A stretch of 64,000 nt of DNA. It comes from Cyanobacteriota bacterium. GTDB taxonomy: Bacteria; Cyanobacteriota; Cyanobacteriia; Thermostichales; Thermostichaceae. The notes beneath the pieces were generated by a model, which saw only the letters and a list, made by a program, of their open reading frames with translations, searched no databases and had not been told where the DNA came from. Positions within the stretch are counted from its first letter, which is position 1. Each line of letters opens with the position of its first letter. Positions 32,017 to 60,418 of this stretch are shown here, piece by piece. The stretch lies in contig JANRIL010000028.1 of NCBI GenBank assembly GCA_033764955.1, positions 1-64,000 on the forward strand, written 5' to 3'. The position numbers were made by a program, and so were the translations under genes.

Positions 32017-32044
32017 GATGTTTTTGTTATTGGGTTAGAGGTGG

Positions 32045-33487: not shown

Positions 33488-33516
33488 ATAACAACCCTTA
33501 ATCCCTTTGTCTCAGG

Positions 33517-35043: not shown

Positions 35044-35655
35044 GAGCCTTAGCCTCTCAACGATTAGGTTATACCAAGCATCGGGATCCCGTAGGATCTT
35101 CAAGACTTTCTGAGACGAAACAAACAGCAGGGACTTCCTTCGCTACCAGAATTAGAGTTAGACAGTGCTTATATTTAATGTTTAGTAGCTAACCAAATTT
35201 ACCCGAAGGAATGGATTGTGGCTGAGGCAACTATCAATTCTTTTGGAATCTTTCAGGATCAATGGGTGGATCCAGATGGATCCCTAACAAAACCAAAACC
35301 TAAACTTGCCCAATCCGCAAATTTACGCATACTTCTCCAGGATTTATCGGCTCTGGATGAATGGATATCTTGAGGTGGGGTATGACACTGCTGAGAGAGT
35401 CCCCTTGGGAGAGAGAAATTGAGGAAAGTGAGATCCGGATTGGTAAACAAGAAGGGATCCTACTGGGGAAACAGCGCGGATACACTAGCTCAGGCTCACC
35501 TGGATCATTGTGACCCTTAACCCCCACGACTCATTCACCAAGCGCTATCGGATTGGCTAGGAGGAAGAGCGGGAACTGCTTAAGGATCCCTCACTTCTGG
35601 CCGAGGAGAAAGGATATGCTAAATGATCGCAAAAATCATCGGGACAAAAAACCTC

Positions 35656-36429
35656 ATGCGACTCAAGGAGAAAGTAGCTCTGATCACGGGAGCAGGTAGT
35701 GGGATTGGACGGGAGACAGCCCTCCTCTTTGCCCGTGAGGGATCCCGTGTGGTGGTGGTGGATGTCAACGATGGGGCTGGACAAGAGACGGTAGCGCAGA
35801 TCCACGCAGAGGGGGGCGAAGCCGTCTACGTTCATGCGGATGTGGGGGTGGCGCAAGCGTGTCAACGGATGATTGCCATCGCTGAGGAGCAGTTTGGCCA
35901 GTTGAATGTTTTGTTTAACAATGCTGGCATTATGCACAGCCAGGATGACGATGCGGTTTCCACTTCGGAAGCCGTTTGGGATCTCACCCTCACCATCAAC
36001 CTGAAGGGGGTATTCCTGGGCTGCAAATATGGGATCCCGGCTTTGCGACGGGCTGGAGGGGGATCCATCATCAATACAGCCTCTTTTGTGGCCATTATGG
36101 GGGCAGCTACTCCTCAGGTGGCCTATACCGCTAGTAAGGGGGGGGTGTTGGCCCTCACCCGCGAATTGGCGATCATTCATGCCCGTGAAAATATCCGTGT
36201 CAATGCCCTCTGTCCGGGGCCATTGCGAACCGAACTGTTGATGAAATTCCTCGACACGGAGGAGAAACAGCAACGACGCTTAGTGCATATTCCGATGGGG
36301 CGCTTTGGGGAAGCCCGCGAAATTGCTCAAGCCGCTCTGTTTTTAGCCTCCGATGAGTCGTCGTTTATAACCGGAACGGACTTTTTGGTAGATGGCGGCA
36401 TTACCTCCGCCTATGTAACTCCTCTCTAG
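35656..36429 (+). CDS. Short-chain dehydrogenase/reductase
   Basis: TGAGSGIG, NNAG, YTASKG, VDGG; D after beta-2 suggests NAD preference. Confidence 0.92.
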   Translation: MRLKEKVALITGAGSGIGRETALLFAREGSRVVVVDVNDGAGQETVAQIHAEGGEAVYVHADVGVAQACQRMIAIAEEQFGQLNVLFNNAGIMHSQDDDAVSTSEAVWDLTLTINLKGVFLGCKYGIPALRRAGGGSIINTASFVAIMGAATPQVAYTASKGGVLALTRELAIIHARENIRVNALCPGPLRTELLMKFLDTEEKQQRRLVHIPMGRFGEAREIAQAALFLASDESSFITGTDFLVDGGITSAYVTPL

Positions 36430-37913: not shown

Positions 37914-38202
37914 ACCTAACCCCCTAGCACGATCAAAATATACTGATGAATATATTGAGACTTACATTTTAAGGCTTTAGATTATTTCCGAAGGATCCCT
38001 AACAACAGTAGTTTTCACTACCGATCAAACAAATCAACTATAGAGACAGCAAAATCCTATCTGAGAGGGGGCCAATTTTTAGAGAGCAAATTTACAGAAA
38101 TGGTTTGGGTGGCGGCGCAGAGAGGTGTGGGTGGTTGTGCGGGATCCCTAACGGTGAAGATATCCTGATCTCGGTAATCCCCCAGTTCATTAGGATCTCT
38201 AG

Positions 38203-46048: not shown

Positions 46049-46849
46049 TCATTCTATGGATCCCAGCTCTGATTCGGGGTCACTATCCTGCTCGTCGCTC
46101 TCTGTCCATGTTCGCTGCCCTTCAGCCGACTCATCGATGCCTGGTTGCTCAAAAGCAGACTCAAGATCGGCATCCATAACTGTCATGGGTTGGTGGGGTA
46201 GCCCCTCCGCCAGATCTGTCTTTTGGGGAGCCATTCCTCTCTCCAAAACCCCTACTACTTCATCGAAGATTTTGTAGGCAGCAGATCGATCCATTTTCTG
46301 CACTTGATCGATCGTCATTAGCATGGGATCCAAACCCAATCGATCGCAGACATAATCTCCCAGGTGGCCCAACAAAGCATGGATGATAAATGCCCCCAAG
46401 CGAGTGTTGACATCTAACTCCCCCTGAGCACACCCCTGCCTGACCAGTTGCCAAATATATTTCAAAGAGGTAGCACGCGAGGCTTCCAGAGATTCCGCAG
46501 CAAAAGGCAACTCACCATAGGTAGCTTGGCGCAAAAAACGATTGAGATGGGGTTGAGCCAGTTCAAACTCAAAATTGACTTCCATTAACCAGCGTAAATA
46601 AGGAAAAAAACCCATCCGTTGGCGCAAAAAGGCAAACTTCTGCTGCATCCCCTGCTCTAAGACATAAAGGTAGAGATCCTGTTTATCTTGAAAATATTGG
46701 TAGATACTGCCTTTGGCGATGCCTACCTGAGCTACAATCCGCGACACAGAGGCATTAGTGTAATCATGTCTGGCAAATTCCTCCACCGCTGCCTCTAAAA
46801 TGAGTCGTTGTTTGTCTTGAGAAAGATTGAAAAATGTTTGAGTTGGCAT
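46049..46849 (-). CDS. TetR/AcrR family transcriptional regulator
   Basis: MPTQTFFNL...ILEAAVEEFA...SVSRIV..GIAKGSIYQYFQDK HTH; acidic C-terminal tail. Confidence 0.92.
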   Translation of the reverse strand: MPTQTFFNLSQDKQRLILEAAVEEFARHDYTNASVSRIVAQVGIAKGSIYQYFQDKQDLYLYVLEQGMQQKFAFLRQRMGFFPYLRWLMEVNFEFELAQPHLNRFLRQATYGELPFAAESLEASRATSLKYIWQLVRQGCAQGELDVNTRLGAFIIHALLGHLGDYVCDRLGLDPMLMTIDQVQKMDRSAAYKIFDEVVGVLERGMAPQKTDLAEGLPHQPMTVMDADLESAFEQPGIDESAEGQRTWTESDEQDSDPESELGSIE

Positions 46850-46896
46850 AAAAGCAAGAGGAGGCAAAAGGCATAGAACAGAACTTGAGAGGAAAT

Positions 46897-48219
46897 CTAT
46901 GAGGTTTTTTTAACAAGCTCAGGCCCAGAATACCAAAAGGCAGCCGTTAAACCTAGGGCCAGAAACCCATTAAACACCAATCCCCCTGCCAAGCCCCATG
47001 GACTGATATCCACAATCAGACCGACCAACAGTGGACCCAAAATAAATCCAGCATCACTAATAGACCGAAAGATGCCCATAGCAGGTCCATAGCGATCGTG
47101 GGGGGTAACCTCAGCCGTATAAGCACCGGTGGCCGGAATACAGATTCCGGTGGCAATGCTAAACAACCCCATGCTCACACAAAAGGGAAGAAGTGTATTG
47201 GCCCATGCCAGGAGAAGCAGTGATACAGCACATAAGCCAGAACTCCACAACACCACCAGTTTGTTCCCAAAACGGTCAATGGCGGATCCGACAAAGGGTA
47301 AGGTGAAAAAATTGATAACGGTTGCGGCCATTAGAATAAGTCCGACCGTACCAGCCCCCAAACCAAAGCGATAGTAAATGGCTAAGGGCAATAAGTTTAG
47401 CTTAGCGGCAGTACGGGTAAAGAAGGTGCCAAAGGAGATCAAAGTAATCATTAAAAAGCCAGGGCTACAGAAAACCAAGCGTAAGTCACTCCCCCAATTC
47501 AAAGAATCAGAACCCAGAGAATCAGAACCTACCCTCTGGGAAGGGGGAGCAGTCCTTTTATCAGGGGATAAAGTTTCTGGCAAAGAGGTCAACGCCACAA
47601 CGATTGCCAGCAACGCCAATAGACCAAACACCCAAAAGGGAGCACGCAGCCCAAAGTGAGTAGCAATCCATCCACCAAAGGCTGGCCCTAAGGTTGTCCC
47701 TATGGAAACCGCTCCTTGATAAAGCGCCATCATTCGACCACGGGTTGGTGGGGAACTTAGATCCGCCACAGATGCCATTGCTGAGGTAATATACAGGCCC
47801 GAACCCATCCCTTGCCCAATCCGCCATAGTAGTAACAGTAGAAAGTGATCGGTGCCAGCCGCTCCAAAAGAAGATATTGCCAGGGTAACTAATCCCCCCA
47901 CCAACAAAGGCCGTCGCCCCCATCGCTGCGATAGGGATCCCGCCGGAATATTGATCAGCAAGCGGGCAATGCCAAAGACGGTGATAATCATACCCGCCAA
48001 CGTTACCCCCACCTCAAAGGTTGCTCCGTAAAGCGAGAGGACAGGGGAAACCAAGCCGATACCCATCATCACCAACATGACAATGCTCAAGAGGGGAATC
48101 AGAGCGGGTTGTTCTGCCACAATAGCCCCCCAGGAGGGGCTAGTTGAGGGAGACGTGGGTGGGGAAGCCGAAAGTGTTGGACGTGACATGATCTCAATCG
48201 GTAAGCAACAGCAGGACAT
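46897..48219 (-). CDS. MFS transporter (DHA1-like, about 12 TM)
   Basis: G.LSQRWGRR motif A, WRIGQGMG, RGRMMALYQ..GTTLGP..GG. Confidence 0.9.
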   Translation of the reverse strand: MSCCCLPIEIMSRPTLSASPPTSPSTSPSWGAIVAEQPALIPLLSIVMLVMMGIGLVSPVLSLYGATFEVGVTLAGMIITVFGIARLLINIPAGSLSQRWGRRPLLVGGLVTLAISSFGAAGTDHFLLLLLWRIGQGMGSGLYITSAMASVADLSSPPTRGRMMALYQGAVSIGTTLGPAFGGWIATHFGLRAPFWVFGLLALLAIVVALTSLPETLSPDKRTAPPSQRVGSDSLGSDSLNWGSDLRLVFCSPGFLMITLISFGTFFTRTAAKLNLLPLAIYYRFGLGAGTVGLILMAATVINFFTLPFVGSAIDRFGNKLVVLWSSGLCAVSLLLLAWANTLLPFCVSMGLFSIATGICIPATGAYTAEVTPHDRYGPAMGIFRSISDAGFILGPLLVGLIVDISPWGLAGGLVFNGFLALGLTAAFWYSGPELVKKTS

Positions 48220-48226
48220 GCCTCTC

Positions 48227-49684
48227 TTAGCGGGAACAGAACGCCATTAACAGAGAGAAGACTGTTCCTGTCAAAAACACTGTTCGATGTCCCCCCATGA
48301 ACACTTCGGGGCTAAGCCTATTGCCAGAAGCTGTTCCTAACTGAAATAACACCACCCCCAATGTGGCACCTGTGGCCTGACCGAATACCCGCACAAAGGC
48401 AACAATGCTGCCACCCGTGCCCAATTTACCCGATGGCATGGCATTCATTAGGCGGGTGTTGTTGGGAGCGGAAAAAAGCCCCATACCCAAACCCTGCAGC
48501 AAGAGGGGAAGCATCACCTGCCAGGTGGCAGGGGTAGTGGGCAAAATAGCCAGACCAAGCTGTCCGATCGCTAAGGCCAAGGATCCCAGCCGTGCCAATC
48601 GAACTGTCCCATAGCGATCGGCTAGCCATCCCCCAACTGGAGCAAATAAAGCTAGCACTAGCGAATAGCCTGTCAACAATAGACCAATTTGAGCAGGCGG
48701 CATGGCTAGCCGCTGATCCAAGAAATAGGGCACCATCAAAAGGGTAAAGTAGGCTACCAGAAACGACATAAATCCGGTGAAGGCAGCCAAACTCAAGATA
48801 GGATCCCGAAACAAGTTGACATCCAACAATGGCTGAAGTGATGCCTGCTGGCGGCGAACAAACCAGCTCCCCAAACTGAGACCAATCCCTATAACAGCCA
48901 GCAGCCGCCAATCCAACCCCCACTCAGGGGCTTGCGACAAACTCAAGATCAGACAAAAAGCTGTTAGGGCAAAGGTGATGCTTCCCCCCAGATCAACCCG
49001 CTGATCTGACTGCACGACCTCCTGCCTCGACAGTCGCCACATAAAGATGTAGGCCAAGCTCCCCCCTAACAACCCCAAGGGTAGATTGACAAAAAATAGC
49101 CATCGCCAACTGGCCGCCTGTAGGATCAAGCCACCAATAGCGGGGCCGCAGAGGGTTCCTACGGCGGCTGCCGTTGAAAGAAGTCCAATGGCTTTGCCAC
49201 GGGAGGTTTTGGGAAACACCGCACTCAAAATGGCGATGTTGTTTGCCACTAACATAGTGCTGCCAACCGCCTGCACAATCCGAAAGCCAATCGCCATTGA
49301 TAACGTGCTGGAAAGCCCCACTAAAGCGGATCCCAGCACGAAAATAAAAAATCCTAGGTTGTAAACTCGCGTTGGACCATAAACATCTGAGAGCCGTCCT
49401 ATCGTTGGCAAGAGTCCAGCCACCGTAATCAAAAAACCAGACACCATCCATTTGGCAGTTGCCAGATCTGCCTGCAAAACTCTAGCCATCGTGGGCAGAG
49501 CCGTGTTGACAATCCCTGCCGAAGAAGTGGACATAAAAGTACCAACACAAGTCGCCACCAAAACCCACCAAGGATTAAAGGGCGGGGATGAGGATGGCTG
49601 GGATCCCTCAGGCCGGTTGGGGGTAGGGTTCGTTTCGGGCTGGGGCACAAGCTCCTGTTTCACCACCGTCTTTCTCCTCTGCAT
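48227..49684 (-). CDS. MFS transporter (DHA2/EmrB-like, about 14 TM)
   Basis: IVNTALP, GRLSDVYG, FRIVQAVG, WRWLFFVNLP.G. Confidence 0.9.
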   Translation of the reverse strand: MQRRKTVVKQELVPQPETNPTPNRPEGSQPSSSPPFNPWWVLVATCVGTFMSTSSAGIVNTALPTMARVLQADLATAKWMVSGFLITVAGLLPTIGRLSDVYGPTRVYNLGFFIFVLGSALVGLSSTLSMAIGFRIVQAVGSTMLVANNIAILSAVFPKTSRGKAIGLLSTAAAVGTLCGPAIGGLILQAASWRWLFFVNLPLGLLGGSLAYIFMWRLSRQEVVQSDQRVDLGGSITFALTAFCLILSLSQAPEWGLDWRLLAVIGIGLSLGSWFVRRQQASLQPLLDVNLFRDPILSLAAFTGFMSFLVAYFTLLMVPYFLDQRLAMPPAQIGLLLTGYSLVLALFAPVGGWLADRYGTVRLARLGSLALAIGQLGLAILPTTPATWQVMLPLLLQGLGMGLFSAPNNTRLMNAMPSGKLGTGGSIVAFVRVFGQATGATLGVVLFQLGTASGNRLSPEVFMGGHRTVFLTGTVFSLLMAFCSR

Positions 49685-49835
49685 AAACCTGGCTGCTGGG
49701 AGCCTTTCACGTCGGGATCCCTATAGAAGCCAATCAAAAAGGCCAGGAGGACTGCGGGGGGTGCCTCGCCAAGCCACTGTTTCTGACCTTATTAGCCCAT
49801 AGACTGAGACCCCGCTCAGTAACCAGCCAAAGGAT

Positions 49836-50462
49836 TCAAACCAGTATGGGTAGACGAGTCCACGCATTGATCACTTCTTCGGCTGTCGCCACTACACCAA
49901 AATGACGATTGATGTTAGCCAGCGTGGCGGCATGGGCATCAGCATGACTGGTGGCTGTACAGTCGGACAAAAAGACAATGTGATAGTCGAGCATGAAACC
50001 ATCGCGGGCGGTGGACTCCACGCAAACATTGGTAGCCACACCCGTCATAATCAGGGTCTCTACCTTGAGCCGTCGCAAAACTTGATCCAACCGCGTGCCG
50101 ATGAAGGCGCTGTAGCGATGCTTATGAATAATCAAATCCTGGGGTTGCGGCTTCACCCCAAAAAACTCTGCTCCAAAGCTACCGGGGCGGCAAATGCTCC
50201 TGGAGTGGTGGCTGCGCTCTAGCCAGACATCGGAGTCTGTGGCGTCGGTATGGATAGTCTGAATGAAAATAATCGATACCCCAGATTGACGAGCTGCCTC
50301 GATCAGCCCATTCAGAGCGGGGACAATCGCTTGAGAGGCTTCAGTACTATACCCTCGCTGCCCTAGGGAACCCTCAGGATGACAGTAGTCATTTTGCATA
50401 TCTACCACTATCAAAGCGGTTTTGTGGGGGGCAACTTTTTCGGGTAAAGGCATTTTTGGCAT
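49836..50462 (-). CDS. Cysteine hydrolase, isochorismatase family (RutB-like amidohydrolase)
   Basis: ALIVVDMQND, KHRYSAF, TGVATNVCVESTARDGF (Asp-Lys-Cys triad). Confidence 0.9.
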   Translation of the reverse strand: MPKMPLPEKVAPHKTALIVVDMQNDYCHPEGSLGQRGYSTEASQAIVPALNGLIEAARQSGVSIIFIQTIHTDATDSDVWLERSHHSRSICRPGSFGAEFFGVKPQPQDLIIHKHRYSAFIGTRLDQVLRRLKVETLIMTGVATNVCVESTARDGFMLDYHIVFLSDCTATSHADAHAATLANINRHFGVVATAEEVINAWTRLPILV

Positions 50463-50505
50463 GATGAGGTTCTCCGTTTAGCGTGAAAGAGTAAAATTGA
50501 GACTT

Positions 50506-51510
50506 TTAGGATCCCTTGATAAACTGCATATCGACTAAGGCATCGTAGGAATAAGACCCTTTGTAGAGACCTGAAGCAATCGGGATCTCCATAGCATTGG
50601 TGAGCGCTTGCTCGCTGACAGTGCCATCCAAAGTCCACAGTTGGTCGGCATAGGCACGGTCAAGAGCTGCCTTGATCAACTCCGGTTTGATGCTGGTAAA
50701 TTCCTGCTGAGCAATCTCAAAGGCTGCTTCAGGATTATCGTTGACAAATTTGATTCCCTTGAGCAAAGCATCCACAAAGGCTTGAGCGGTCTCAGGATCT
50801 TGGGTGTAAGTAGACTCTTTAACGTTAATGGTGGAGTAGGCATAATCCCCCAATTCGGCCGGAAAGCTGTAGAAAGGTTCCCCCCACAGACCTTGTTGGA
50901 TCCCTTGGGTAATCTGTGGCTCGGTGGTATAGGAAATATCCCCCTGCTGGGAGAACTGAGCTAGGACTGTCCCGCTATCGGCCAGCTCTACCATCTCCAC
51001 ATCTTTGTCGGGATCCAAACCCAAAGAGGTGATGTAGTACCGAGCAAGCAAGTTAGGACTGCCACCAAACCGTCCACCCACCACCACTTTGCCTTTCATA
51101 AAGTCAGCCATCTGGGAGGGGTCTTCAGGAAGCTGGAGATCGGGCTTAGCCACCATATAAACGTTGGCTTTGTTGACCACATTGACAATAGTCTTCATGT
51201 TTTGACCCTTTTGATTAGCAAAAGCGGCACTCTCCGGCCCACCGATAAAACCCCAGGCATCATCACTAATCACCGTCGAAACATGACCTCCGCCAGCGGC
51301 TGTCAGGATTTCTACATTCAGCCCCGCTTGCCGAAAGTAGCCCTCCCGCACCGCCACATAGAGGGGCAAATAGCCTAGGTTGCGGGCAGGTTCTGAGATA
51401 GTTAAATTCTTTAGGGATTGAGCCTGTAAAGGAAGGTATGTGGAAAGCAATATCACCAAGCAAGCAGAAAGAACAGTTACGGCTAGTGACCCAAACGAAC
51501 GACGACGCAT
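50506..51510 (-). CDS. ABC transporter substrate-binding protein (SsuA/THI5/NMT1-like)
   Basis: Signal peptide MRRRSF..., YLPLYVA..GYF..GL.VE; ATG 51510. Confidence 0.88.
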   Translation of the reverse strand: MRRRSFGSLAVTVLSACLVILLSTYLPLQAQSLKNLTISEPARNLGYLPLYVAVREGYFRQAGLNVEILTAAGGGHVSTVISDDAWGFIGGPESAAFANQKGQNMKTIVNVVNKANVYMVAKPDLQLPEDPSQMADFMKGKVVVGGRFGGSPNLLARYYITSLGLDPDKDVEMVELADSGTVLAQFSQQGDISYTTEPQITQGIQQGLWGEPFYSFPAELGDYAYSTINVKESTYTQDPETAQAFVDALLKGIKFVNDNPEAAFEIAQQEFTSIKPELIKAALDRAYADQLWTLDGTVSEQALTNAMEIPIASGLYKGSYSYDALVDMQFIKGS

Positions 51511-51629
51511 AAAGCTCTCCTTGTAAATTAAGGGGAATAAAGGAATGAAAGTAGCAAATGTCTTAGTTGGATTAACTGGGCTACTGCCACCAAGTCTTAA
51601 AAAGGGGCAATGTTTCAAAACCCTTCCAA

Positions 51630-52481
51630 TCAACGGGTAGAGGCTCCCACCCCAGCTTGGAGGCGAGCTTCGATCACCGCCACAAACCAGTACATCAACA
51701 TCGCCATGATGCAGAGGGTAAACACAGCCACCCAAATAGATTCCATATCGAAAAGCATGGAGGCATTAACGATCATGCGACCTAGCCCACGACGAGAGGA
51801 GATGTATTCCCCGACAATAGCGCCCGTCAAGGCCAGACCAATATTGATGCGAAGGGAGGAGAAAATCCAAGGCATGCTCCAGGGCACAACCACCTTGGAA
51901 AAGACCTGCCAACGATTTGCTCCCAGGGAATAAAGCATCTTTTGCAGATCTTGATCCACGCTTTTCACCCCCCCATAGGCCGCAATGGCTGTCACAGTAA
52001 CGGTCAGCATGATGGCGATGGCCACCTTGGAGAGTAATCCGATCCCCAAAGCCAGGATCAAAATGGGAGCGAGGGCAATCTTGGGGAGAGCTTGCAGGGT
52101 AACCAAGTACGGCTCAACAACTTTGGCGTAGGCATGAGACCACCAAAAAGAAAGTCCAATTGCCCCTCCCAAGCAAGTACCCAAAATGAAACCCAAGATG
52201 GTAGCTTGAGAGGTAAAAAGAATATCTCCAGCTAACTCTCCTGTCACCAGGAATGTCCATGTCCGAAGAGCTATGGTAGAAGGCATTGACCAAAAGAAGG
52301 GATCCAAAATACCTAGGCGCGCTAGGATTTCCCAACTAGCGATCAAGAAGACGACCACGGTAAGCTGCATCGCCTGAATAACAGCCGGAGGAGCGACAGT
52401 TACATCAGAGATCGCACGCCGCCGCGAGGACGACTTAAGGTGTGAGCCGGCCAAGGGTAAGGAAATCGTGGCATCTTTCAT
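51630..52481 (-). CDS. ABC transporter permease (NitT/TauT family)
   Basis: LPKIALAP, EAA-like loop (SLGANRWQVF.KV..P), GAIVGEY...GLG. Confidence 0.92.
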   Translation of the reverse strand: MKDATISLPLAGSHLKSSSRRRAISDVTVAPPAVIQAMQLTVVVFLIASWEILARLGILDPFFWSMPSTIALRTWTFLVTGELAGDILFTSQATILGFILGTCLGGAIGLSFWWSHAYAKVVEPYLVTLQALPKIALAPILILALGIGLLSKVAIAIMLTVTVTAIAAYGGVKSVDQDLQKMLYSLGANRWQVFSKVVVPWSMPWIFSSLRINIGLALTGAIVGEYISSRRGLGRMIVNASMLFDMESIWVAVFTLCIMAMLMYWFVAVIEARLQAGVGASTR

Positions 52482-52541
52482 GACATTACTCGTGACAGAT
52501 CATTTATTGGGGAGTGCAGGACAAATCATTCGTTAAGGGAG

Positions 52542-53348
52542 TTAGGCTGAGGCTGTCATCATGGCAGGTTGAATATCCTCGGTATCAGGAGATTCTTCAG
52601 CTAATAAATCAAGCAAATAGCCTTTTAGGCGGACAAACTCTCGATCGGTAAAGACATGACGATCACGGGGACGAGGCAGAGCAACCTCCAGTACCGTTTT
52701 CACCCGTCCTGGACGAGCCGACATCACGACGATCCGATCCGATAAGAAAATCGCCTCGTCGATGTCATGGGTGACAAACAAAATCGTCTTGTTCATCTCT
52801 TGCCAAACCCGTAGTAACCAAGCCTGCATAGTCACCCGTGTCTGAGCATCCAACGCCCCAAATGGCTCATCCAACAACACGACATCCCGGTCGTAGAGGA
52901 GGGTACGGATCAGGGCAGCCCGTTGCCGCATTCCCCCCGATAGTTGAGTCGGACGACAGTGGGCAAAGTCCCCCAACCCATAGCGCTGCATTAAATCCAT
53001 TGCCTTGGGAACCGACTGGGATTTCGGGATCCCGCTCACTTCCATGCCCAAGATGACGTTCCCTAAAATTGACCGCCAAGGCAGGAGGAGATCTTTTTGC
53101 AGCATGTAGCTAACAATGCCCGCCTGCGCCGTAACATCCTCACCGTCAATCAGAATCACCCCTGTGGTGGGAGAACTCAACCCAGCAATCAGGTTAAAGA
53201 GGGTGGATTTGCCACAACCACTAGGGCCAATGATGCTAGTGAAACGCCCTTCTGGGAATTCCAAAGTGGTAGGAGTAAGAGCCTGCACAATACCCCCCTG
53301 AGCTACCACAAAGGTTTTGGATAAATCTCGGATTTCTAGCATGGGCAT
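52542..53348 (-). CDS. ABC transporter ATP-binding protein (NitT/TauT family)
   Basis: GPSGCGKST, LSGGMRQR, LLDEPFGALD, VTHD. Confidence 0.95.
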   Translation of the reverse strand: MPMLEIRDLSKTFVVAQGGIVQALTPTTLEFPEGRFTSIIGPSGCGKSTLFNLIAGLSSPTTGVILIDGEDVTAQAGIVSYMLQKDLLLPWRSILGNVILGMEVSGIPKSQSVPKAMDLMQRYGLGDFAHCRPTQLSGGMRQRAALIRTLLYDRDVVLLDEPFGALDAQTRVTMQAWLLRVWQEMNKTILFVTHDIDEAIFLSDRIVVMSARPGRVKTVLEVALPRPRDRHVFTDREFVRLKGYLLDLLAEESPDTEDIQPAMMTASA

Positions 53349-53397
53349 TTTTTACTTAATCATGGATTTAGTTGTAGCGGCCTCAGCTCTAAAATAA

Positions 53398-53413
53398 TGT
53401 AAATTAAGATACA
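53398..53413. promoter_or_regulatory. NtcA-binding site upstream of the ABC operon
   Basis: TGTA-AATTAAGA-TACA matches GTA-N8-TAC. Confidence 0.65.
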
Positions 53414-53446
53414 AAATTAGATGTTTTTCTTTTATTTTTCTTTGAT

Positions 53447-53462
53447 ATGACTTAGCGGTCAT
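53447..53462. promoter_or_regulatory. Palindromic operator 1 (candidate TetR site)
   Basis: ATGAC-TTAGCG-GTCAT; motif repeated at 53703. Confidence 0.5.
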
Positions 53463-53620
53463 TTTGTTTTAGCGATTGATTGACGAATCGTTTTAGCAAT
53501 TTTCGCTACTTAGCTATCCCAGGCTCTTTCCCTCTCGGTCTCAGTCTGGGCTGGCCAAAATCCCGAAAAATCTGGCTAAACTGTGATGAGTTTTATCAGA
53601 CATATACGTGTATTCATTAT

Positions 53621-53666
53621 GTTTTGTATCTGGAGATACAAAACGACTCATATTTGTTGATAGTCT
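53621..53666 (+). promoter_or_regulatory. NtcA-activated promoter for the asparaginase-like gene
   Basis: GTTTTGTATC-TGGA-GATACAAAAC perfect inverted repeat containing GTA-N8-TAC, then N21 and TAGTCT (TAN3T). Confidence 0.75.
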
Positions 53667-53702
53667 AACGATTGGCTTAGTTTCGAGCTTAAAATTATAA
53701 AA

Positions 53703-53718
53703 ATGACTTGCTAGTCAT
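53703..53718. promoter_or_regulatory. Palindromic operator 2 (candidate TetR site)
   Basis: ATGACT-TGCT-AGTCAT. Confidence 0.5.
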
Positions 53719-53840
53719 GGCGACTAATCGCTGAAGTTATGAGGTCTCTTGTTTTTGCAAAATAACTTGCAAGATCCATTGATGTCTTCTGTAGCAGGGA
53801 GACTATTTGCTTGTCCCATCCCTACTTGAGGTCAGCCACG

Positions 53841-55532
53841 ATGAAACCCAAAATTGCCATTTTTTCTGGCCCAACAGCTACGATCCATAACAGTGAGCCG
53901 CTAGTAACCAGCAATAAAGCCCGTGCCCACTACGGATTACCCCTGTTGCGGGATGAGGACGGAGATCCTTTGCGTTTTGATGTCTTACGTCCTCAACGCT
54001 TGGCCGCTCCGGTAAAAGTTTATATTGAGCAGTTCAGTGCTCACCCGCTAGAGCAGGATGCCTGTGAATTGTATGCACCTCCCGATGGGTATTTGGATGG
54101 CAGTGGTATATTTCACCGTCAGCCACAATCTCCGCAGGATAAGCCTGTTTATGAGGTGATTCTCCAGCCTGAAGACGGCTTATATCCTTTGCCGTATATG
54201 GCTCGTCAGGCAAATGGCTCAGCTTGGGAGGATGACTGTGCTTATGCTGGCGCGCCACCCGAACATAGCCGCCAGCCTTTTTATCCCGACGCCTCACGGA
54301 TTGTCGAAGAAATCGACCGACTGGGTTATGGCCACGCAGGCATTGGCAGCTTACTCTCCTCGCGGGCGCGCTTTGCTTACTACCGAGCGGCTCCCCCTGG
54401 AGGCTATAAAAAAGGCTTACCTGCCCAGCAACGCACGGATGTAGGGACAGGAGATATTCTGCCGGAGCGGATGGGGCAGGATTTTTTCCCCTATCGCCCC
54501 CGTCACCTTGCTCAAGAGCCTTCGTTAGCAACCTTGGCTCATCTAACCAATGTGGTGGCCGAAGCGATGGCCGATCCTGAGTGCGCCGGCGGAATCTGGC
54601 TAGAGGGATCCCCTTCTACGGAGGAAACCACCTATTGGCTGAATCTGTTGATCGATACAACCCTGCCGATTGTTGGTAATGCTTCCCAACGTCCCCACGG
54701 GGCGGTGAGTAATGATGGGGATCGCAATATCATCGACTCGGTAACCTATATCCTCTCGAAAATCTGGGCGGATGAAACCGGTAAGGATCAGGTGGGTGGA
54801 GTGATGATTCAAGAAGAGCAGATCTTTGCTGCCCGTGATGTGCAGAAAGGAGATGCTCGTCCGGGGGGATATGTGGCCACTGGTGGACATGGTGGCATTA
54901 TCGGTACGATTGGCGATCCGGATCCGGCTACTCTCACCTATTTGCCCAACAAGCGCCATACCCACACTTCCCTGGTCAATCTCAGCCACATTCCTCTTTC
55001 AGTCTTGGGTACGAAGAAAGACCTGTCGGGTCAGTTGGTGCCGCTACCGATTGCGGTGAAAGATGAGGCAGGCAAGCTCTTGGCCACAGCCATTCCTAAG
55101 GTGACTCTGGCCAAATATAGTCGTTACCAGTTGGATAGCACGGATGACGACATCGCTGGAGAAGTGGAGTTGATGGCTCGTCTTGAGAAAAATTTGCAGG
55201 ATTTCCCATTAGCCGGATTTGTTGTAGAGGGCAAATCTCCCTATGGGCGAGGCAATGAGACGATGGAGGCTGTTCTGGAACAAGCAGCTCATTGCGGAAT
55301 GCCTGTCGTGAAGGTGGGGAGAGGGAATGCCGATGGCTTTGCCACATCTGGCAGTTGGTGGATTGGGGGTAGTAATTTAACCGCCACCAAGGCTCGTTTA
55401 CTGTTGATGGCCTGTTTACTCCGTTTCGGCAGTTTGCCTGTTGCTCAGAATCCAACCGCTCCCACCCCAGCCGAAACAGCGGCTCTCAAGCAAAAGGTAG
55501 CCATCTATCAGGAGATTTTCAACTCCCACTAA
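53841..55532 (+). CDS. Asparaginase/glutaminase-fold amidohydrolase, atypical
   Basis: KIAIFSGPTATI (cf. TGGTI), EGSPSTEETTYWLNL (cf. HGTDTMEETAY.L), VGNASQRP....SNDGDRNI, NLTATKARLLLM. Confidence 0.7.
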   Translation: MKPKIAIFSGPTATIHNSEPLVTSNKARAHYGLPLLRDEDGDPLRFDVLRPQRLAAPVKVYIEQFSAHPLEQDACELYAPPDGYLDGSGIFHRQPQSPQDKPVYEVILQPEDGLYPLPYMARQANGSAWEDDCAYAGAPPEHSRQPFYPDASRIVEEIDRLGYGHAGIGSLLSSRARFAYYRAAPPGGYKKGLPAQQRTDVGTGDILPERMGQDFFPYRPRHLAQEPSLATLAHLTNVVAEAMADPECAGGIWLEGSPSTEETTYWLNLLIDTTLPIVGNASQRPHGAVSNDGDRNIIDSVTYILSKIWADETGKDQVGGVMIQEEQIFAARDVQKGDARPGGYVATGGHGGIIGTIGDPDPATLTYLPNKRHTHTSLVNLSHIPLSVLGTKKDLSGQLVPLPIAVKDEAGKLLATAIPKVTLAKYSRYQLDSTDDDIAGEVELMARLEKNLQDFPLAGFVVEGKSPYGRGNETMEAVLEQAAHCGMPVVKVGRGNADGFATSGSWWIGGSNLTATKARLLLMACLLRFGSLPVAQNPTAPTPAETAALKQKVAIYQEIFNSH

Positions 55533-55594: not shown

Positions 55595-58500
55595 CTATTC
55601 GGTAACGGTTAGTGACTGGCTGCTGCTTTGCCCATACACCTGGGCGGGGTTATACATCTCTTCGGCGTGGGCAGGGGGGATGGAAAATTGACCAGGGATT
55701 TCTGGCCGGAACAGATAGACAAACTCATGGCTGCCGCGGGGCAGTTCGGTGGCAAAGAAGGTGATGCGGTTGTCTCGGATCTCTTGATGCGTCCAAAACC
55801 AGTCCCAACCATAGCGGGAGGGATCCCCACCATCGGTGAGGGTACGTGGATCTTGAGAGAGCACCTCCACGCCACTAGCCAGGGGTTCTTCCAGCATGAC
55901 GTAGTTGTGATCCTGATCGGAGGTGAGGGTGATTTTGCCCATCAGGGTTGTGCCCGCTGCCACCGTTCCAGAAAAGGGACGCTCCTCATAAAGAATGCGA
56001 CCATCCCGTTGTGGTTTGGCTTGCAAACGGAAATAGCGGCGCGTCACCGCTAATCCCTGGGACTCAGCGGGCAGGGGGGATGTAGGGGGGGTGGGTACAA
56101 AGGCTTGCAGATCCAGGCTGGCGTAGAGGGGGCCGGATCCCACCTTTTCCAGTTGCAGGGTTTGGGATCCCGCCCGTAAGAGGGGGCTATTGAGATCGCG
56201 GGGAGTGAGGCGGAGGGTTTGCCGGGGCTGTCCAGGGTTTGCCTGCCATTCGGCTAGGATGGATCCTGTCTGGAGATTTTTCAAGCGAACTTGATAGGTG
56301 GCGGGATTTTGCTGGCTGAGGGTTTGGGTATAGCGGATCAATCCCATCAGAGCATCAGCACTGGCTTTGGTGGTTTGCCACGCGGATCCCTGCCGCTGTT
56401 GCAGTAGCCAATCGGCAAGCTGGGAGGCGCGTTGATCCCGCAATAGGGTAGCCGCCTCCAGCAACGGTCCTGCCACTTCTGCCCCTGCGTAGGTGGGACG
56501 CAGCCAGAGGGGACGGATCCCTAAGACTTGGCTAGCCTGCTGAAACCAACGGTAGCCGCTATTGAGTTGGGCGCTGACCCACACCTGGTCAAAAGAGGCT
56601 TGCGCCAGTTGGCGATCTGCCAAGGCTAAAGCAGCTAGGCTGCGATAGGCTATGCCCAGAGTGGAAAGCTGATCCGTCGGGATCCCCGTCAATCGCGGCA
56701 GGCTGCCTTGCTCATAGAGGGCCAAAATATACTCCGCGAAGACTTGCATGTCGGCATCCAGAGCATTGTCTCGGTTAGGGGGGGCAGCCACCTGAGTCTG
56801 GAGATACGCTAGTCCTCGTTCCACCTGCTCAGGGATGATCGCCTCTCCGTAGCCCGCTTCGGCGGCTTGTCGATAGCCCAACAAAACATAGCTGGTCAGA
56901 TAGGGGTTACTGCGGTCATAACGCCACCAGCCCCAGCCCCCATCGGAGTTTTGGCTTTCTTGTAGACGGCGAATCCCTTGCTGCACCACCTGGGACAACC
57001 GTTCTAGTGTGGAGGACTGGAGCGTTAATCCCAGCGCCGATCTGGCCTGATCAATCGCCAATGCAGGCAAGAAGCGGCTGAGGGTTTGCTCCGTACAGCC
57101 ATAGGGATAGTCCACCAGATAGTCGAGGGATCCCAGCAAAGAGGCGAGGGGGTTGCTGGCCCAATCAATTTGCAAGACAAGGGATCCCGGCACCACGGAA
57201 TCGGGCAGGGAGAGGGAAATGGTTTGGGTTTGGGATCCTGCCAGCAGAGACCTGCTTTCATGAAAGCGCCAATCACGACCCAAGGGCTGAGCGGGGATGG
57301 TCAGTTGCACGGCATCCTGAAGTTGATCGGCTTGGGCGATCACCCGCACGGTGGTGGCTCCAGCCGCCAAAACCTGAGTCGGCCAGACAAGCCGCTGGGA
57401 TCCCTGAGGGGGCAGGCTAATGCGTTGGCTGGGAGCCGTCAAGGGTTGCAGGGTGGAGGGGGTTTCCAGTTGCACGTTCACCGTCTGCGGCTGATCCGTC
57501 TGGTTTTGCACAATCGCAGTCACGCTGAGTTGATCCCCTGTGGAGAGAAAGCGGGGAGTGGCTAATCTGACCAGTAAATCCTTGCTGACCTGTAGGGTAT
57601 GGCGGGCGGATCCCACTTGAGTGGCGGCGGTGGTGGCGCGTGCCGTCAGCCGCCAGGTGGTGAGATTGTCTGGCAACGGAACCGGAACAGTGGCTAGTCC
57701 CTGACTGTCGGTGACAATCGTGGGGAACCAAGCGGCGGTATCCCGAAAGTTTTGTCGTACCTGATTAGCTAATTTGTCCAGCCCCGCGGGATATTGCTGG
57801 GGGAAGGAGTAAGCGGTGTTGACGCGGTTATAGCGTTGTTGATAAAAGAAGCGACGAATATCAGGGGTAGGATCCTCCCGCAGGATGTAAAGGGCGCTAT
57901 CCACCACCCCCAGGCTGACCTCCGCCGGAATAGGTAGACCCTGGGCATCGCGGGTTGAGATCTGGATTTGCGCCGTCTCTCCGGGCTGATAGACCTGCCG
58001 ATCACTCGTCACCTCTACCTGCAAAAAGCGATCCAAAGGAGAGACGCGGATCACCGCTTCCCCCTGATAAATCTGCCGTTGGGATCCCAGTAGGGTAACC
58101 CCATAAAACACATTGGGTCGATAGTTCTCCAGAATGGGCAGGTCAATCTTCGCCACATTGCCCGCCAATTTTTTGACTTGTGCCTGATAAATCGTTACCC
58201 CTTCCACCGTCAACAGGGCATAGGCATCTGGCAACGGCGAGACCACCAATAGGTGGGCAGTATCCCCCACTTGATAGACCTCTCGATCGGGGATCACCTG
58301 AATGCCCTGCTGGGGGCCAGCCCAACGGAAACCGGAGGCATCCGCCTGCGTCACCCAAATGCTGGTTTGATCCTGCATCATTCCCCCTTGACTGTCCCGT
58401 GCCTCCACGATCACCCGATAGTTCCCATTGGGCAGATCGCTAGGTAAGTTGAGGCTAACGGAGCCTTCCCCACCCTCGGTGCGGAAGGGGCTGGTTAGGA

Positions 58501-60418
58501 GGGTGCGCTGTTTTTGATAGCGGTTTTGCTTGGCTTCCCACAGCCATTCTTCAATCCGTAGGTTGCCCGAACGAATAGAAACGGGTTGCTGATCATAGCC
58601 ATAGGAGCGGATCCGATAGGTGAGGGGATCCCCTGCGGCGGCCACATACTGATCTCCTTCCACAAACAGGGCAGCGGATCCCTGGGTAACCCGCAGACGA
58701 GCATCACGGCTGACACTACGGCGACTGATATCGGTGACTTCCACTTCAATTCGCAGTTGCTGAACGGGAGCGGAGCCAAAATAATCTTCCTCCGACCCCT
58801 GCCACTCAAAATCCTTCAACAGGTTAGCGAGGCGAAACCGAGCCAATCCGGTGTCGTCGGTGATGGTATCCCCCTCTAGGATCAGCGATCCATAGCCGCC
58901 ATAGTCATAGCCTCGCTCTCGATCTAACTCATTGCCAAAAAAGTCAGCGGCAGCCGAACGGGGCAAGACTTGATAGCGAAAACCCCAGTCGGGACTGCGG
59001 TAGACGGTATAGTGAACCTGAGCCTGGGCAACGGGGCCACCAAACAGATAATTGGCACGGGCACTCACCTCCACGGCGGATCCCTGTTTGACCCAACTCT
59101 GATCGGTGGTCACGCTCACATCAAATTCCGGCTTGCGATATTCCTCCACCCGCACAAACGCATAGGAAGTGGCGGCTTCCGCCTTGATGATCAATTCATA
59201 GCTACCCAGTTCCCCATCCGCTGGTAGAGCTACTTCCCCATGCACAGTTCCAAAGCGGCTCACCGTCAAGGTTTGAGGGGGTAAGGGATCCCCACGCGGC
59301 GTTGTGACCTGCACCTCAACTGTTGATCCGGCGGGCACAGGAACCAGGGATCCCTGGCCATCCAGGCGGCGGAGAATACTGCGGAAATAGACGGTTTGCC
59401 CAGGTCGATAGAGGGGGCGGTCGGTGTAGGTATAGATGGAGTATTGGTCGGTGGATCCGCCATAGTAATAACTGCTGGCTAGGGCTTCCCAGTTTTGCTC
59501 CGCTAGCCGACCATAGACCAAAAACTGGCTTTGATCCCGCCGCTGTTGAGGAATCAGGATTTGCGTGAGACCGGAAGCATCAGTGGTTGCCCGTAAGGGG
59601 GGTTGGGTTAAATCGTCCTGTCCATACACCCGCACCTCCACATTGGGGATGGGTTGTAAGGTAGCGAGGTCGACCGCCTCCACCACCATGCGATCGCTGG
59701 CCTGTTTTTGGATCAAGCCCAGATCGGTAATGGTGAAGATCAGACCAGCCGTCAGCGGTTTCTCGGTCTCCAGGTTGGCTTGGGCGCGCAGGGTATAGGA
59801 TCCCACCTCCAAATCGGGCAAATCCAGGGTAATGGCTGACCAGGCATCTTCTCCTATGGGCAGGGGTTGTTGCCAGGTGCGAATCGGCTGAGCCGTAATC
59901 CCCTCCATCAAGCCATACCCATAGGGATCCGCCAATTCCCGCAGCTCGTCACTACCCAGATAGTCCTGGATCTGGAAGCGAGCCAACTGCAACTGCACCG
60001 ACTCAATCCCTGAGGCGCGCAGATTGATTTGGGGTTCTTCCTGGCGAGTAAAGACTTGGCTGGTAAAGGAAAAGTAAAGGGCGGGGGTGAGGGCGGTTAA
60101 GGACGTGGCGGGTAACTCCAGTTGTTGCCCTTCTTTCACCCTCACCTGTTCTTGAATAACGGTGGATTCATAACCCTGGGCGGTTGCCCGCACCCGATAG
60201 GATCCCTGGGGCAGTTGGCGAATGGTAAAGCGTCCATCCTTGCCAACATGCACCCCCCGCACCACCGGACCATAGGCAATCGCCTGAATATCGGCGGCGG
60301 GTTGATCGGCAGCCAGCACCACCTGCCCACTCAGAGATCCCCTAGGAGGTTCTGCCATAATCACGGCGGATCCCAACCCCAAGAGCAGCAGCAACGCCAG
60401 CAACCATCGTCCCAGCAT
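55595..60418 (-). CDS. Bacterial alpha-2-macroglobulin family protein
   Basis: Signal peptide, ITDLG, YTDRPLYRPGQTV, VEEYRKPEF, LPDNLTTWR, thioester motif YPYGCTEQ (CTEQ 57086-57097), QNSDGGWGWW, PPAHAEEMY. Confidence 0.93.
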   Translation of the reverse strand: MLGRWLLALLLLLGLGSAVIMAEPPRGSLSGQVVLAADQPAADIQAIAYGPVVRGVHVGKDGRFTIRQLPQGSYRVRATAQGYESTVIQEQVRVKEGQQLELPATSLTALTPALYFSFTSQVFTRQEEPQINLRASGIESVQLQLARFQIQDYLGSDELRELADPYGYGLMEGITAQPIRTWQQPLPIGEDAWSAITLDLPDLEVGSYTLRAQANLETEKPLTAGLIFTITDLGLIQKQASDRMVVEAVDLATLQPIPNVEVRVYGQDDLTQPPLRATTDASGLTQILIPQQRRDQSQFLVYGRLAEQNWEALASSYYYGGSTDQYSIYTYTDRPLYRPGQTVYFRSILRRLDGQGSLVPVPAGSTVEVQVTTPRGDPLPPQTLTVSRFGTVHGEVALPADGELGSYELIIKAEAATSYAFVRVEEYRKPEFDVSVTTDQSWVKQGSAVEVSARANYLFGGPVAQAQVHYTVYRSPDWGFRYQVLPRSAAADFFGNELDRERGYDYGGYGSLILEGDTITDDTGLARFRLANLLKDFEWQGSEEDYFGSAPVQQLRIEVEVTDISRRSVSRDARLRVTQGSAALFVEGDQYVAAAGDPLTYRIRSYGYDQQPVSIRSGNLRIEEWLWEAKQNRYQKQRTLLTSPFRTEGGEGSVSLNLPSDLPNGNYRVIVEARDSQGGMMQDQTSIWVTQADASGFRWAGPQQGIQVIPDREVYQVGDTAHLLVVSPLPDAYALLTVEGVTIYQAQVKKLAGNVAKIDLPILENYRPNVFYGVTLLGSQRQIYQGEAVIRVSPLDRFLQVEVTSDRQVYQPGETAQIQISTRDAQGLPIPAEVSLGVVDSALYILREDPTPDIRRFFYQQRYNRVNTAYSFPQQYPAGLDKLANQVRQNFRDTAAWFPTIVTDSQGLATVPVPLPDNLTTWRLTARATTAATQVGSARHTLQVSKDLLVRLATPRFLSTGDQLSVTAIVQNQTDQPQTVNVQLETPSTLQPLTAPSQRISLPPQGSQRLVWPTQVLAAGATTVRVIAQADQLQDAVQLTIPAQPLGRDWRFHESRSLLAGSQTQTISLSLPDSVVPGSLVLQIDWASNPLASLLGSLDYLVDYPYGCTEQTLSRFLPALAIDQARSALGLTLQSSTLERLSQVVQQGIRRLQESQNSDGGWGWWRYDRSNPYLTSYVLLGYRQAAEAGYGEAIIPEQVERGLAYLQTQVAAPPNRDNALDADMQVFAEYILALYEQGSLPRLTGIPTDQLSTLGIAYRSLAALALADRQLAQASFDQVWVSAQLNSGYRWFQQASQVLGIRPLWLRPTYAGAEVAGPLLEAATLLRDQRASQLADWLLQQRQGSAWQTTKASADALMGLIRYTQTLSQQNPATYQVRLKNLQTGSILAEWQANPGQPRQTLRLTPRDLNSPLLRAGSQTLQLEKVGSGPLYASLDLQAFVPTPPTSPLPAESQGLAVTRRYFRLQAKPQRDGRILYEERPFSGTVAAGTTLMGKITLTSDQDHNYVMLEEPLASGVEVLSQDPRTLTDGGDPSRYGWDWFWTHQEIRDNRITFFATELPRGSHEFVYLFRPEIPGQFSIPPAHAEEMYNPAQVYGQSSSQSLTVTE

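What the first reader, a model, noticed from the sequence alone, without database searches (positions are those of the whole stretch)
46049..55532. NtcA-linked nitrogen-scavenging island for an unknown amide or ureide substrate
Seen: a leftward run of NitT/TauT ABC importer, RutB-like Cys hydrolase, two MFS transporters and TetR, plus a divergent asparaginase-fold enzyme. The shared spacer carries two GTA-N8-TAC boxes, one with a properly spaced -10. Known: NtcA activates nitrogen-scavenging genes, and isochorismatase-family members include ureidoacrylate, biuret and guanylurea hydrolases. Inference: an N-rich compound is imported, ammonia is released by two amidohydrolases, and the carbon skeleton is exported via MFS. 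I do not recognise this as a described pathway.
Basis: partly seen in the sequence, partly recalled or inferred. Interest (0 to 1): 0.7.

Follow-up and report, generated by a model that had tools for sequence, protein, structure and literature searches.

The report
Nitrogen-scavenging amide cluster with odd asparaginase
A cyanobacterium carries a real, rare gene cluster that probably switches on under nitrogen starvation to import an unknown amide- or urea-like compound and strip ammonia from it, using an asparaginase-shaped enzyme that has lost the residue needed to bind asparagine.

Summary
Observation confirmed. All eight genes and both NtcA-type boxes are there; box 2 has a -10 at 21 nt, kept in the orthologous locus of another genus. 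It occurs twice here and twice in each of three related spacers: a candidate TetR operator.

The cluster is a mosaic. The ABC importer and RutB-type Cys hydrolase group with a Bacillota module; the DHA1 MFS and TetR match a paralogous module.

The binding-protein family occurs in 5 of 401 cyanobacterial genomes. Of its 6 loci, 5 hold an asparaginase-fold gene, a family found in only 15 of 201 genomes. All five lack the Asp90 equivalent, in three different forms.

The 563-aa enzyme has the class 1 asparaginase fold (Z 28) and keeps Thr12/Lys162 equivalents, with Ser-Pro for Thr89-Asp90. The scan noted this family before on other DNA (e1-688900).

Best reading: NtcA-activated, TetR-gated uptake and two-step deamination of a ureido or acyl-amide compound. 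It is not Rut, not BiuH and not an L-asparaginase. Substrate, induction and export are untested. Verdict: new variant of a known kind.

The parts
46049..46849 (-). TetR-family regulator (TetR_N + TetR_C_5-like), candidate binder of the RTGAC-N6-GTCAY sites
   Evidence: (only close homologue among 40 relatives is 49% identical, in G018, beside the paralogous cluster)
46897..48189 (-). DHA1-type MFS transporter (start may be 48219)
   Evidence: 47-50% to the MFS of the four paralogous cyanobacterial clusters, 39% Neorhizobium
48227..49666 (-). DHA2/EmrB-like MFS transporter (GTG start inferred from RBS and G005 orthologue; the listed ORF begins at 49684)
   Evidence: EmrB model 199 < 230 cut-off; 32% to the same-slot gene of two Bacillota clusters
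49836..50462 (-). Isochorismatase-family cysteine amidohydrolase, RutB-type motifs, triad D21-K114-C147
   Evidence: 54-58% to the Bacillota cluster enzymes
50506..51510 (-). NMT1/THI5-like ABC substrate-binding protein with signal-like N-terminus
   Evidence: tree
51630..52481 (-). ABC permease, NitT/TauT type
52542..53348 (-). ABC ATPase, NitT/TauT type
53371..53376 (-). Candidate imperfect -10 (TACAAC) 22 nt from box 1, for the leftward operon
   Evidence: kept at the same distance in G005; function inferred
53398..53413 (.). NtcA-type box 1, TGTA-N8-TACA
53447..53462 (.). Palindrome RTGAC-N6-GTCAY copy 1, candidate repressor operator
53625..53640 (.). NtcA-type box 2, TGTA-N8-TACA
53661..53666 (+). 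Candidate -10 (TAGTCT) 21 nt after box 2, for the asparaginase-fold gene
53703..53718 (.). Palindrome RTGAC-N6-GTCAY copy 2, downstream of the rightward -10
53841..55532 (+). 563-aa long asparaginase-fold amidohydrolase; T14 and K336 kept, EGSP in place of HGTD, about 240 extra residues, no signal-like N-terminus

Best explanation
A divergent nitrogen-scavenging unit for a small neutral or anionic ureido / acyl-amide compound, most likely a ring-opened pyrimidine- or purine-type product. Step 1 (inferred from conserved boxes): under nitrogen limitation NtcA activates both promoters. Step 2 (inferred): the cluster's TetR sits on the two RTGAC-N6-GTCAY sites and lets go when the substrate or a product appears, a two-key logic like NtrC plus RutR. 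Step 3 (inferred from family): the NitT/TauT ABC system imports the compound. Step 4 (triad shown, substrate inferred): the RutB-type Cys hydrolase cleaves its carbamoyl group, giving ammonia directly or through carbamate, and exposes a second amide. Step 5 (fold and residues shown, reaction inferred): the Asp90-less asparaginase-fold enzyme hydrolyses that amide, which has no free alpha-amino group. It fills the slot that amidase-signature enzymes (AtzF-like) fill in related clusters. Step 6 (weakest): the MFS proteins export the spent acid or a toxic intermediate. The unit is a mosaic of a Bacillota-related core and parts of a paralogous module.
For: Binding protein + isochorismatase-family hydrolase + MFS occur together in 11 of 11 loci read. 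An asparaginase-fold gene lies in 5 of 6 cyanobacterial loci, in three different forms (EGSP, NGTW, HGTN), although PF00710 is in only 15 of 201 cyanobacterial genomes and in G000, G018 and G1319 the in-cluster gene is the only match. Amidase-signature genes sit in the Neorhizobium and Roseomonas clusters. A separate G1334 locus pairs a BiuH-clade hydrolase (334 < 370 bits) with another Asp90-less asparaginase behind an NtcA-type box. Among 18 cyanobacterial PF00710 hits, 7 of 10 that lack Asp90 lie beside isochorismatase-family or amidase genes, against 0 of 8 that keep it (+-1.5 kb views). Position 258 is Pro in 119 of 120 homologues and never Asp; T14, S257 and K336 are kept in 120 of 120. 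Asp90 is called invariant and critical for substrate binding (PMC6667453, passages). The fold is class 1 asparaginase (Z 28.2, rmsd 2.8 A, 303 aligned). NtcA-type boxes lie in 6 of 6 cyanobacterial spacers. Operator pairs lie in 4 of 4 family-f1 spacers and 0 of 7 others, including the LysR-bearing ones; in G018, 2 of only 3 genomic sites are in that spacer.
Against: No substrate, binding or expression data. The 3 Bacillota loci, nearest to the window's importer and hydrolase, show no asparaginase-fold gene, so the core can work alone. In 17 non-cyanobacterial genome loci the long enzyme has varied neighbours and often a signal-like N-terminus (read by eye from ORF starts). The loci with short asparaginases carry a different hydrolase subfamily (25-27% identity), so their substrate may differ. 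Asp90 loss also occurs in 3 unrelated cyanobacterial loci (L075, L076, L083). The counted genomes include kin (G1319/G1334 one genus; G000/G005 orthologues), so about three independent lineages. G005 has four operator copies but no TetR match (460 contigs, and both clusters end at or near contig ends). G005:C419 has no asparaginase-fold gene.
Confidence: 0.55

Rival explanations
1. Two nitrogen-scavenging functions share one NtcA-controlled spacer but act on different compounds. The left arm is the self-contained Bacillota-type module (import, one deamination, export of the product). The right arm is a stand-alone amidohydrolase recruited locally.
For: The Bacillota module lacks the asparaginase. 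The long family has scattered contexts. Each arm has its own box and -10.
Against: Three unrelated asparaginase-fold forms recur with this importer family, and both arms share the same operator pair.
Confidence: 0.25
2. The long enzyme acts first, as an acylurea (ureidomalonase-like) hydrolase that releases urea or a ureido fragment rather than ammonia. The extra 240 residues house the larger leaving group.
For: In a Rhizobium tumorigenes plasmid the gene lies between an acetamidase/formamidase-family gene and a full urease cluster. The Asp90 equivalent is lost; the Ser58/Gln59 positions look changed too (offset mapping, tentative).
Against: Only one such locus was seen; no urease gene lies in this cluster; insertion regions are low-confidence in the model.
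Confidence: 0.1
3. A detoxification or efflux unit (TetR plus two drug-type MFS plus hydrolases) for a xenobiotic or reactive amide, where nitrogen gain is incidental and the boxes are only weakly used.
For: Both MFS resemble DHA1/DHA2 efflux pumps; a RidA-like gene lies in the Neorhizobium cluster; the N8 spacing is not enriched genome-wide.
Against: A high-affinity ABC importer leads the operon; NtcA-type boxes recur in 6 of 6 cyanobacterial spacers.
Confidence: 0.07
4. An ordinary L-asparaginase next to a Rut-type pyrimidine operon.
For: The database names and best PDB hits are L-asparaginase and RutB.
Against: Asp90 is absent; scores are far below cut-offs (asnASE_II 51 < 314; RutB 135 < 378); no RutA over cut-off in the genome (best 117 < 498).
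Confidence: 0.03

Closest known systems
E. coli rutABCDEFG with RutR (pyrimidine utilisation)
   Same: RutB-type Cys hydrolase (best PDB match, same triad and KxRYSxF / ATNVCVEST motifs). TetR-family regulator, and a palindrome sharing the TGAC-N6-GTCA core of the RutR box TTGACCAnnTGGTCAA (PMC2475637, passages). Nitrogen-activator control (NtrC role recalled).
   Different: No RutA/RutF/RutD/RutE/RutG in the cluster and no RutA over cut-off in the genome. ABC importer and two MFS instead of RutG. TetR scores 38 < 368 on the RutR model. Asparaginase-fold partner.
Biuret/triuret/guanylurea pathways (BiuH, TrtA, GuuH followed by AtzF)
   Same: An isochorismatase-family hydrolase releases nitrogen from a ureido group and a second amidohydrolase finishes the job, next to an ABC importer (PMC7948467, PMC5806882, PMC12625717, passages).
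   Different: BiuH model 98 < 370; Tyr where BiuH has the essential Lys145; the second enzyme has the asparaginase fold, not the amidase signature.
Class 1 (type II) L-asparaginase / glutaminase-asparaginase
   Same: Whole two-domain fold (Z 27-28); Thr12 and Lys162 equivalents kept.
   Different: Thr89-Asp90 is Ser-Pro; about 240 extra residues; 20-25% identity; no Tyr25 equivalent was identified.
Uncharacterised Bacillota module (MpsC-like, ABC, RutB-like hydrolase, DHA2 MFS), e.g. Geobacillus plasmid CP011833.1
   Same: Same gene order; 47-60% identity for the ABC genes and hydrolase; sister clade in the binding-protein tree (100/100).
   Different: No NtcA boxes, no operator pair, no asparaginase-fold gene, no DHA1 MFS or TetR in the stretches read; itself uncharacterised as far as my searches show.

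Membership tests
Class 1 L-asparaginase | Two-domain class 1 fold | tested here: met
   model pLDDT 71.8; Foldseek E 3e-12; Z 28.2, rmsd 2.8, 303 aligned
Class 1 L-asparaginase | Thr12 nucleophile and Lys162 | tested here: met
   K336 aligned. T14 is assigned by motif (GPTATI for GGTIA), with no residue-level structural alignment seen. Both 120 of 120
Class 1 L-asparaginase | Thr89-Asp90 (HGTD) | tested here: not met
   EGSP; Pro in 119 of 120, Asp in none; invariance of Asp90 from PMC6667453 and PMC8256714 passages
Class 1 L-asparaginase | Tyr25 of the flexible loop | tested here: inconclusive
   region replaced by a low-confidence insertion
Class 1 L-asparaginase | Hydrolysis of L-Asn | not testable with these tools
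   needs an assay
RutB / Rut pathway | Asp-Lys-Cys triad in the isochorismatase fold | tested here: met
   D21, K114, C147 invariant in 9 of 9 cluster enzymes and aligned to RutB
RutB / Rut pathway | TIGR03614 equivalog cut-off | tested here: not met
   135.2 < 377.95
RutB / Rut pathway | RutA monooxygenase in the cluster or genome | tested here: not met
   5 matches, none over cut-off, best 117 < 498; the genome is 89% complete
BiuH / TrtA | NF050097 cut-off and Lys145 (K+3 after the catalytic Lys) | tested here: not met
   98 < 370; KHRY in the window enzyme; role of Lys145 from PMC5806882 and PMC7948467 passages
GuuH guanylurea hydrolase | Signature residues or clade | not tested
   no model in the libraries hit; the defining paper PMC8208167 was not held
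NtcA-activated class II promoter | GTA-N8-TAC with TAN3T about 22 nt downstream (consensus recalled) | tested here: met
   rightward: TAGTCT at 21 nt, TATCTT in G005; leftward: only TACAAC at 22 nt
NtcA-activated class II promoter | ntcA gene in the genome | tested here: met
   TIGR03697 390 > 245 bits
NtcA-activated class II promoter | NtcA binding and induction on nitrogen step-down | not testable with these tools
   needs EMSA or RNA-seq
RutR regulator | TIGR03613 cut-off | tested here: not met
   38.2 < 368; only the operator core resembles the RutR box

The most novel reading that the evidence does not exclude
Asparaginase-fold proteins that have dropped Asp90, both the long EGSP family (spread over many phyla) and short HGTN/NGTW/HGSN forms, are a new functional class of threonine amidohydrolases for non-amino-acid amides or N-carbamoyl intermediates. 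They were recruited several times as the finishing enzyme after an isochorismatase-family hydrolase, in place of AtzF-like amidases. This cluster would then be an undescribed NtcA/TetR-controlled route by which cyanobacteria use an unrecognised organic nitrogen source.
Probability: 0.35. Interest if true: 0.72.

Novelty: new variant of a known kind. Interest (0 to 1): 0.52.

Why it matters
Class 1 asparaginases are treated as having an invariant Thr-Asp-Lys triad and amino-acid substrates. A conserved family with Ser-Pro there, repeatedly tied to ureide-type hydrolases, points to a different reaction on a much-studied fold and to many mis-annotated 'L-asparaginases'. This locus gives that orphan family an informative context: a binding protein, a partner hydrolase, a regulator and a candidate operator, each usable as an independent ligand screen. 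It would also add an organic nitrogen source to those known for cyanobacteria. The design itself (nitrogen activator, importer, amidohydrolases) is familiar, which caps the score.

Tried and rejected
Rfam: no riboswitch in the region; 1 hit in the window, IsrR at 643-829. A guanidine-riboswitch link is not supported.

Generic sigma-70 and terminator scans were at chance level: 7 vs 10.0 and 13 vs 13.0.

No RNA holder was listed, so no reads were laid.

Empty insertion site not shown. The flanking DUF6825 and alpha-2-macroglobulin genes have other neighbours in the 5 and 4 relatives with a match and lie far apart in G001. GC of the cluster (0.48-0.54, spacer block 0.44) is not distinct.

Wider searches that found little:
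- Long asparaginase: 0 of 400 further phylum genomes and 2 of 401 in the class of G436.
- Binding protein: 0 of 401 in the phylum of G436.
- Viral contigs: 3 distant hydrolases (28-29%), not read.

Rows not read: L047 and L048 (29%, short), plasmid hits below H3 (31% or less), H32 and H35.

The operator-like match near the G005/G013 stand-alone asparaginase overlaps the start of the neighbouring gene and was rejected as a coding effect. The N6 spacing of the operator is not uniquely enriched genome-wide (5, 6, 2, 13, 12, 2, 6, 13 for N3-N10).

glnA has only GTA-N8-CAC upstream, while ntcA and the formamidase/urea-ABC-like spacer have exact boxes (gene names read from ORF starts).

Named substrates (oxalurate, ureidomalonate, maleamate, guanylurea) were considered from recall; none could be tied to the sequences.

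Paper searches found no description of this cluster or enzyme family: searches gave 0 papers; some searches listed only general or known-pathway papers. Subscription journals are largely missing from that library and no supplements were read. The insertion was not folded separately.
Full report
1. Observation. The window is contig C43 of a 3.8-Mb, 89% complete cyanobacterial genome (IsrR; NtcA over cut-off). The loose GTA-N8-TAC motif is not enriched in the window (6 vs 3.76). The two spacer sites are extended TGTA-N8-TACA boxes: the only two in the window, 2 of 13 in the genome, and the only such pair among 1161 intergenic gaps. The N8 spacing is not enriched genome-wide, so conservation carries the argument. 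In the orthologous locus of G005 (another genus; proteins 79-88% identical) the spacer has diverged. Yet both boxes (the second as GTA-N8-CAC), the TAN3T 21 nt after box 2 and a TACAAC 22 nt after box 1 are kept. The NtcA consensus itself is recalled, not taken from a paper read here.

2. A second control element. RTGAC-N6-GTCAY occurs twice in the window, both in this spacer (0.14 expected, 0 of 100 shuffles). It occurs exactly twice in each of the three other family-f1 spacers and in 0 of 7 other spacers. In G018, 2 of 3 genomic sites are in that spacer. The core equals that of the E. coli RutR box TTGACCAnnTGGTCAA (PMC2475637, passages). The only close homologue of the window TetR among 40 relatives lies beside the G018 cluster, and the clusters with LysR lack the palindrome. 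I infer a TetR operator. Against this: G005 has four copies and no TetR match, though both of its clusters end at or near contig ends; and the TetR is not RutR (38 < 368).

3. The core module and its mosaic origin. Binding protein, isochorismatase-family hydrolase and MFS lie together in 11 of 11 loci read: six cyanobacterial (window, L001, L040, L041, L070, L071), three of the Bacillota type (a Geobacillus plasmid and two metagenome contigs, L045 and L046, whose taxon is inferred from the tree), Neorhizobium and Roseomonas. More distant hits were not read. The binding-protein tree (43 rows: 10 from loci and 33 of the 120 listed homologues) has two groups. The window clade is sister to a clade whose named members are Bacillota; the other group holds G018, G005:C419, G1319, G1334, Neorhizobium and Roseomonas. 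The hydrolase follows the same split: 54-58% to the first group with RutB-type motifs, 25-27% to the second with NicF/CSHase-like motifs (label recalled). The DHA1 MFS, however, is 47-50% identical to that of the second group's cyanobacteria, and the TetR and operator are shared with G018. The window cluster thus combines both module types. It is rare: binding protein in 5 of 401 cyanobacterial genomes, long asparaginase in 2 of 41 relatives and 0 of 400 further phylum genomes.

4. The asparaginase-fold enzyme. It belongs to a conserved family; the best 120 homologues are 63-100% identical over the full length and are named only 'L-asparaginase', 'asparaginase domain-containing' or 'hypothetical'. 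The model (pLDDT 71.8) matches class 1 asparaginases over both domains (Z 28.2, rmsd 2.8 A, 303 residues), with about 240 extra, partly low-confidence residues. T14 (Thr12 equivalent, by motif), S257 (Thr89) and K336 (Lys162) are kept in 120 of 120. The Asp90 position is Pro in 119 and Ala in 1. Asp90 is described as invariant and critical for binding canonical substrates (PMC6667453 and PMC8256714, passages). That it binds the alpha-amino group is recalled. So the enzyme probably works like an asparaginase on an amide that is not a free amino acid, but it fails membership. The scan noted this family earlier on another genome (e1-688900).

5. Are the two arms linked? For: PF00710 is in 15 of 201 cyanobacterial genomes, yet 5 of 6 cyanobacterial loci of this importer hold such a gene, as three different forms: long EGSP (G000, G005), short NGTW (G018) and short HGTN (G1319, G1334). 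Neorhizobium and Roseomonas have amidase-signature genes in their clusters, divergent in Roseomonas. An unrelated G1334 locus puts a BiuH-clade hydrolase directly before an HGSN asparaginase behind an NtcA-type box. Of the 18 hits, 7 of 10 without Asp90 neighbour such hydrolases, against 0 of 8 with it (short views, kin included). Against: the three Bacillota-type loci show no asparaginase. The long family's 17 non-cyanobacterial genome loci show varied neighbours (read by eye). The three annotated plasmid loci differ too: flavin monooxygenases with an ABC system; an MFS; an acetamidase/formamidase with urease. Three Asp90-less cyanobacterial genes stand apart from such clusters. The link is therefore recurrent but not obligatory.

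6. Mechanism. Shown: genes, boxes, their conservation, the Cys hydrolase triad, the fold and the altered site. Inferred: NtcA activates both arms; TetR represses until the ligand appears; the ABC system imports a ureido or acyl-amide compound. The RutB-type enzyme then cleaves the carbamoyl group, either releasing ammonia as BiuH does or carbamate as RutB does (PMC5806882, passages). The asparaginase-fold enzyme removes the next amide, as AtzF follows BiuH (PMC12625717 and PMC7948467, passages), and the MFS proteins export what is left. I put this at 0.55. Independent arms get 0.25, a urea-releasing acylurea hydrolase 0.10, detoxification 0.07 and ordinary asparaginase plus Rut 0.03. No specific substrate can be named from the evidence.

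7. Comparison and novelty. It works like the Rut and BiuH-AtzF designs but is a member of neither: RutB 135 < 378, BiuH 98 < 370, no Lys145 equivalent, no RutA over cut-off. Guanylurea hydrolase membership was not tested; PMC9800807 (passages) shows that identity is a poor guide to substrate in this family. Ten paper searches showed no description of this cluster or of the long enzyme family. That library lacks most subscription journals, and I read no supplements. Verdict: real, a new variant of a known kind, interest 0.52. The boldest reading not excluded is a new Asp90-less amidohydrolase class serving an undescribed organic-nitrogen pathway (probability 0.35, interest 0.72).

Noticed in passing
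L090:7969-12232 (G1334:C2): PotABCD-like ABC genes and an AsnC-like regulator, then an NtcA-type box, a BiuH-clade hydrolase (334 < 370 bits, no Lys145-type residue in its KPGN motif) and an HGSN asparaginase-fold gene: a second, independent hydrolase plus Asp90-less asparaginase pair.
   Followed up: partly
L040:4236-13824 (G018:C14) and L041 (G005:C419): Paralogous cluster with NicF/CSHase-like hydrolases and an alpha/beta hydrolase on the divergent arm; in G018 also a short NGTW asparaginase and the TetR homologue. Same operator pair.
   Followed up: yes
L054:1-16729 (NZ_CP117262.1): Long asparaginase-fold gene between an acetamidase/formamidase-family gene and a urease cluster, behind a peptide ABC system, with two divergent amidases.
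   Followed up: partly
L045:5609-5980, L046:963-1343, L049:7750-8112: A small gene precedes the ABC genes in all three Bacillota-type clusters; Pfam MpsC (DUF2294) matched in L045, none in L049, L046 not scanned. Possible regulator; role unexplained.
   Followed up: partly
G000:C45:149643-159380: ntcA lies 1.5 kb from a formamidase-like gene and a divergent urea/amide-type ABC operon whose spacer has an exact TGTA-N8-TACA box (names read from ORF starts).
   Followed up: no
G000:C34:19588-26403: A second isochorismatase-family hydrolase with a RidA-like gene, a BMP-type ABC system and a GntR-like regulator (read from ORF starts).
   Followed up: no
G000:C35:2002-23468: Cluster of several luciferase-like monooxygenases with sulfonate-type binding proteins; none is RutA.
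   Followed up: no
window 30625-36429: Glutamine-synthetase-like (PuuA-type) gene, aldehyde dehydrogenase, amino-acid permease and a divergent SDR: another probable amine-utilisation cluster; a GTA-N8-TAC site lies further right at 38008.
   Followed up: no
L091:4130-13224 (G1241:C37): HGTN asparaginase-fold gene divergent from two long amidase-like genes, with a third nearby.
   Followed up: no
window 55595-60418: 1607-aa bacterial alpha-2-macroglobulin convergent on the cluster; a core-like gene found in 4 of 5 relatives searched.
   Followed up: partly
window 643-829: IsrR antisense RNA (Rfam RF01419, 159 bits).
   Followed up: no
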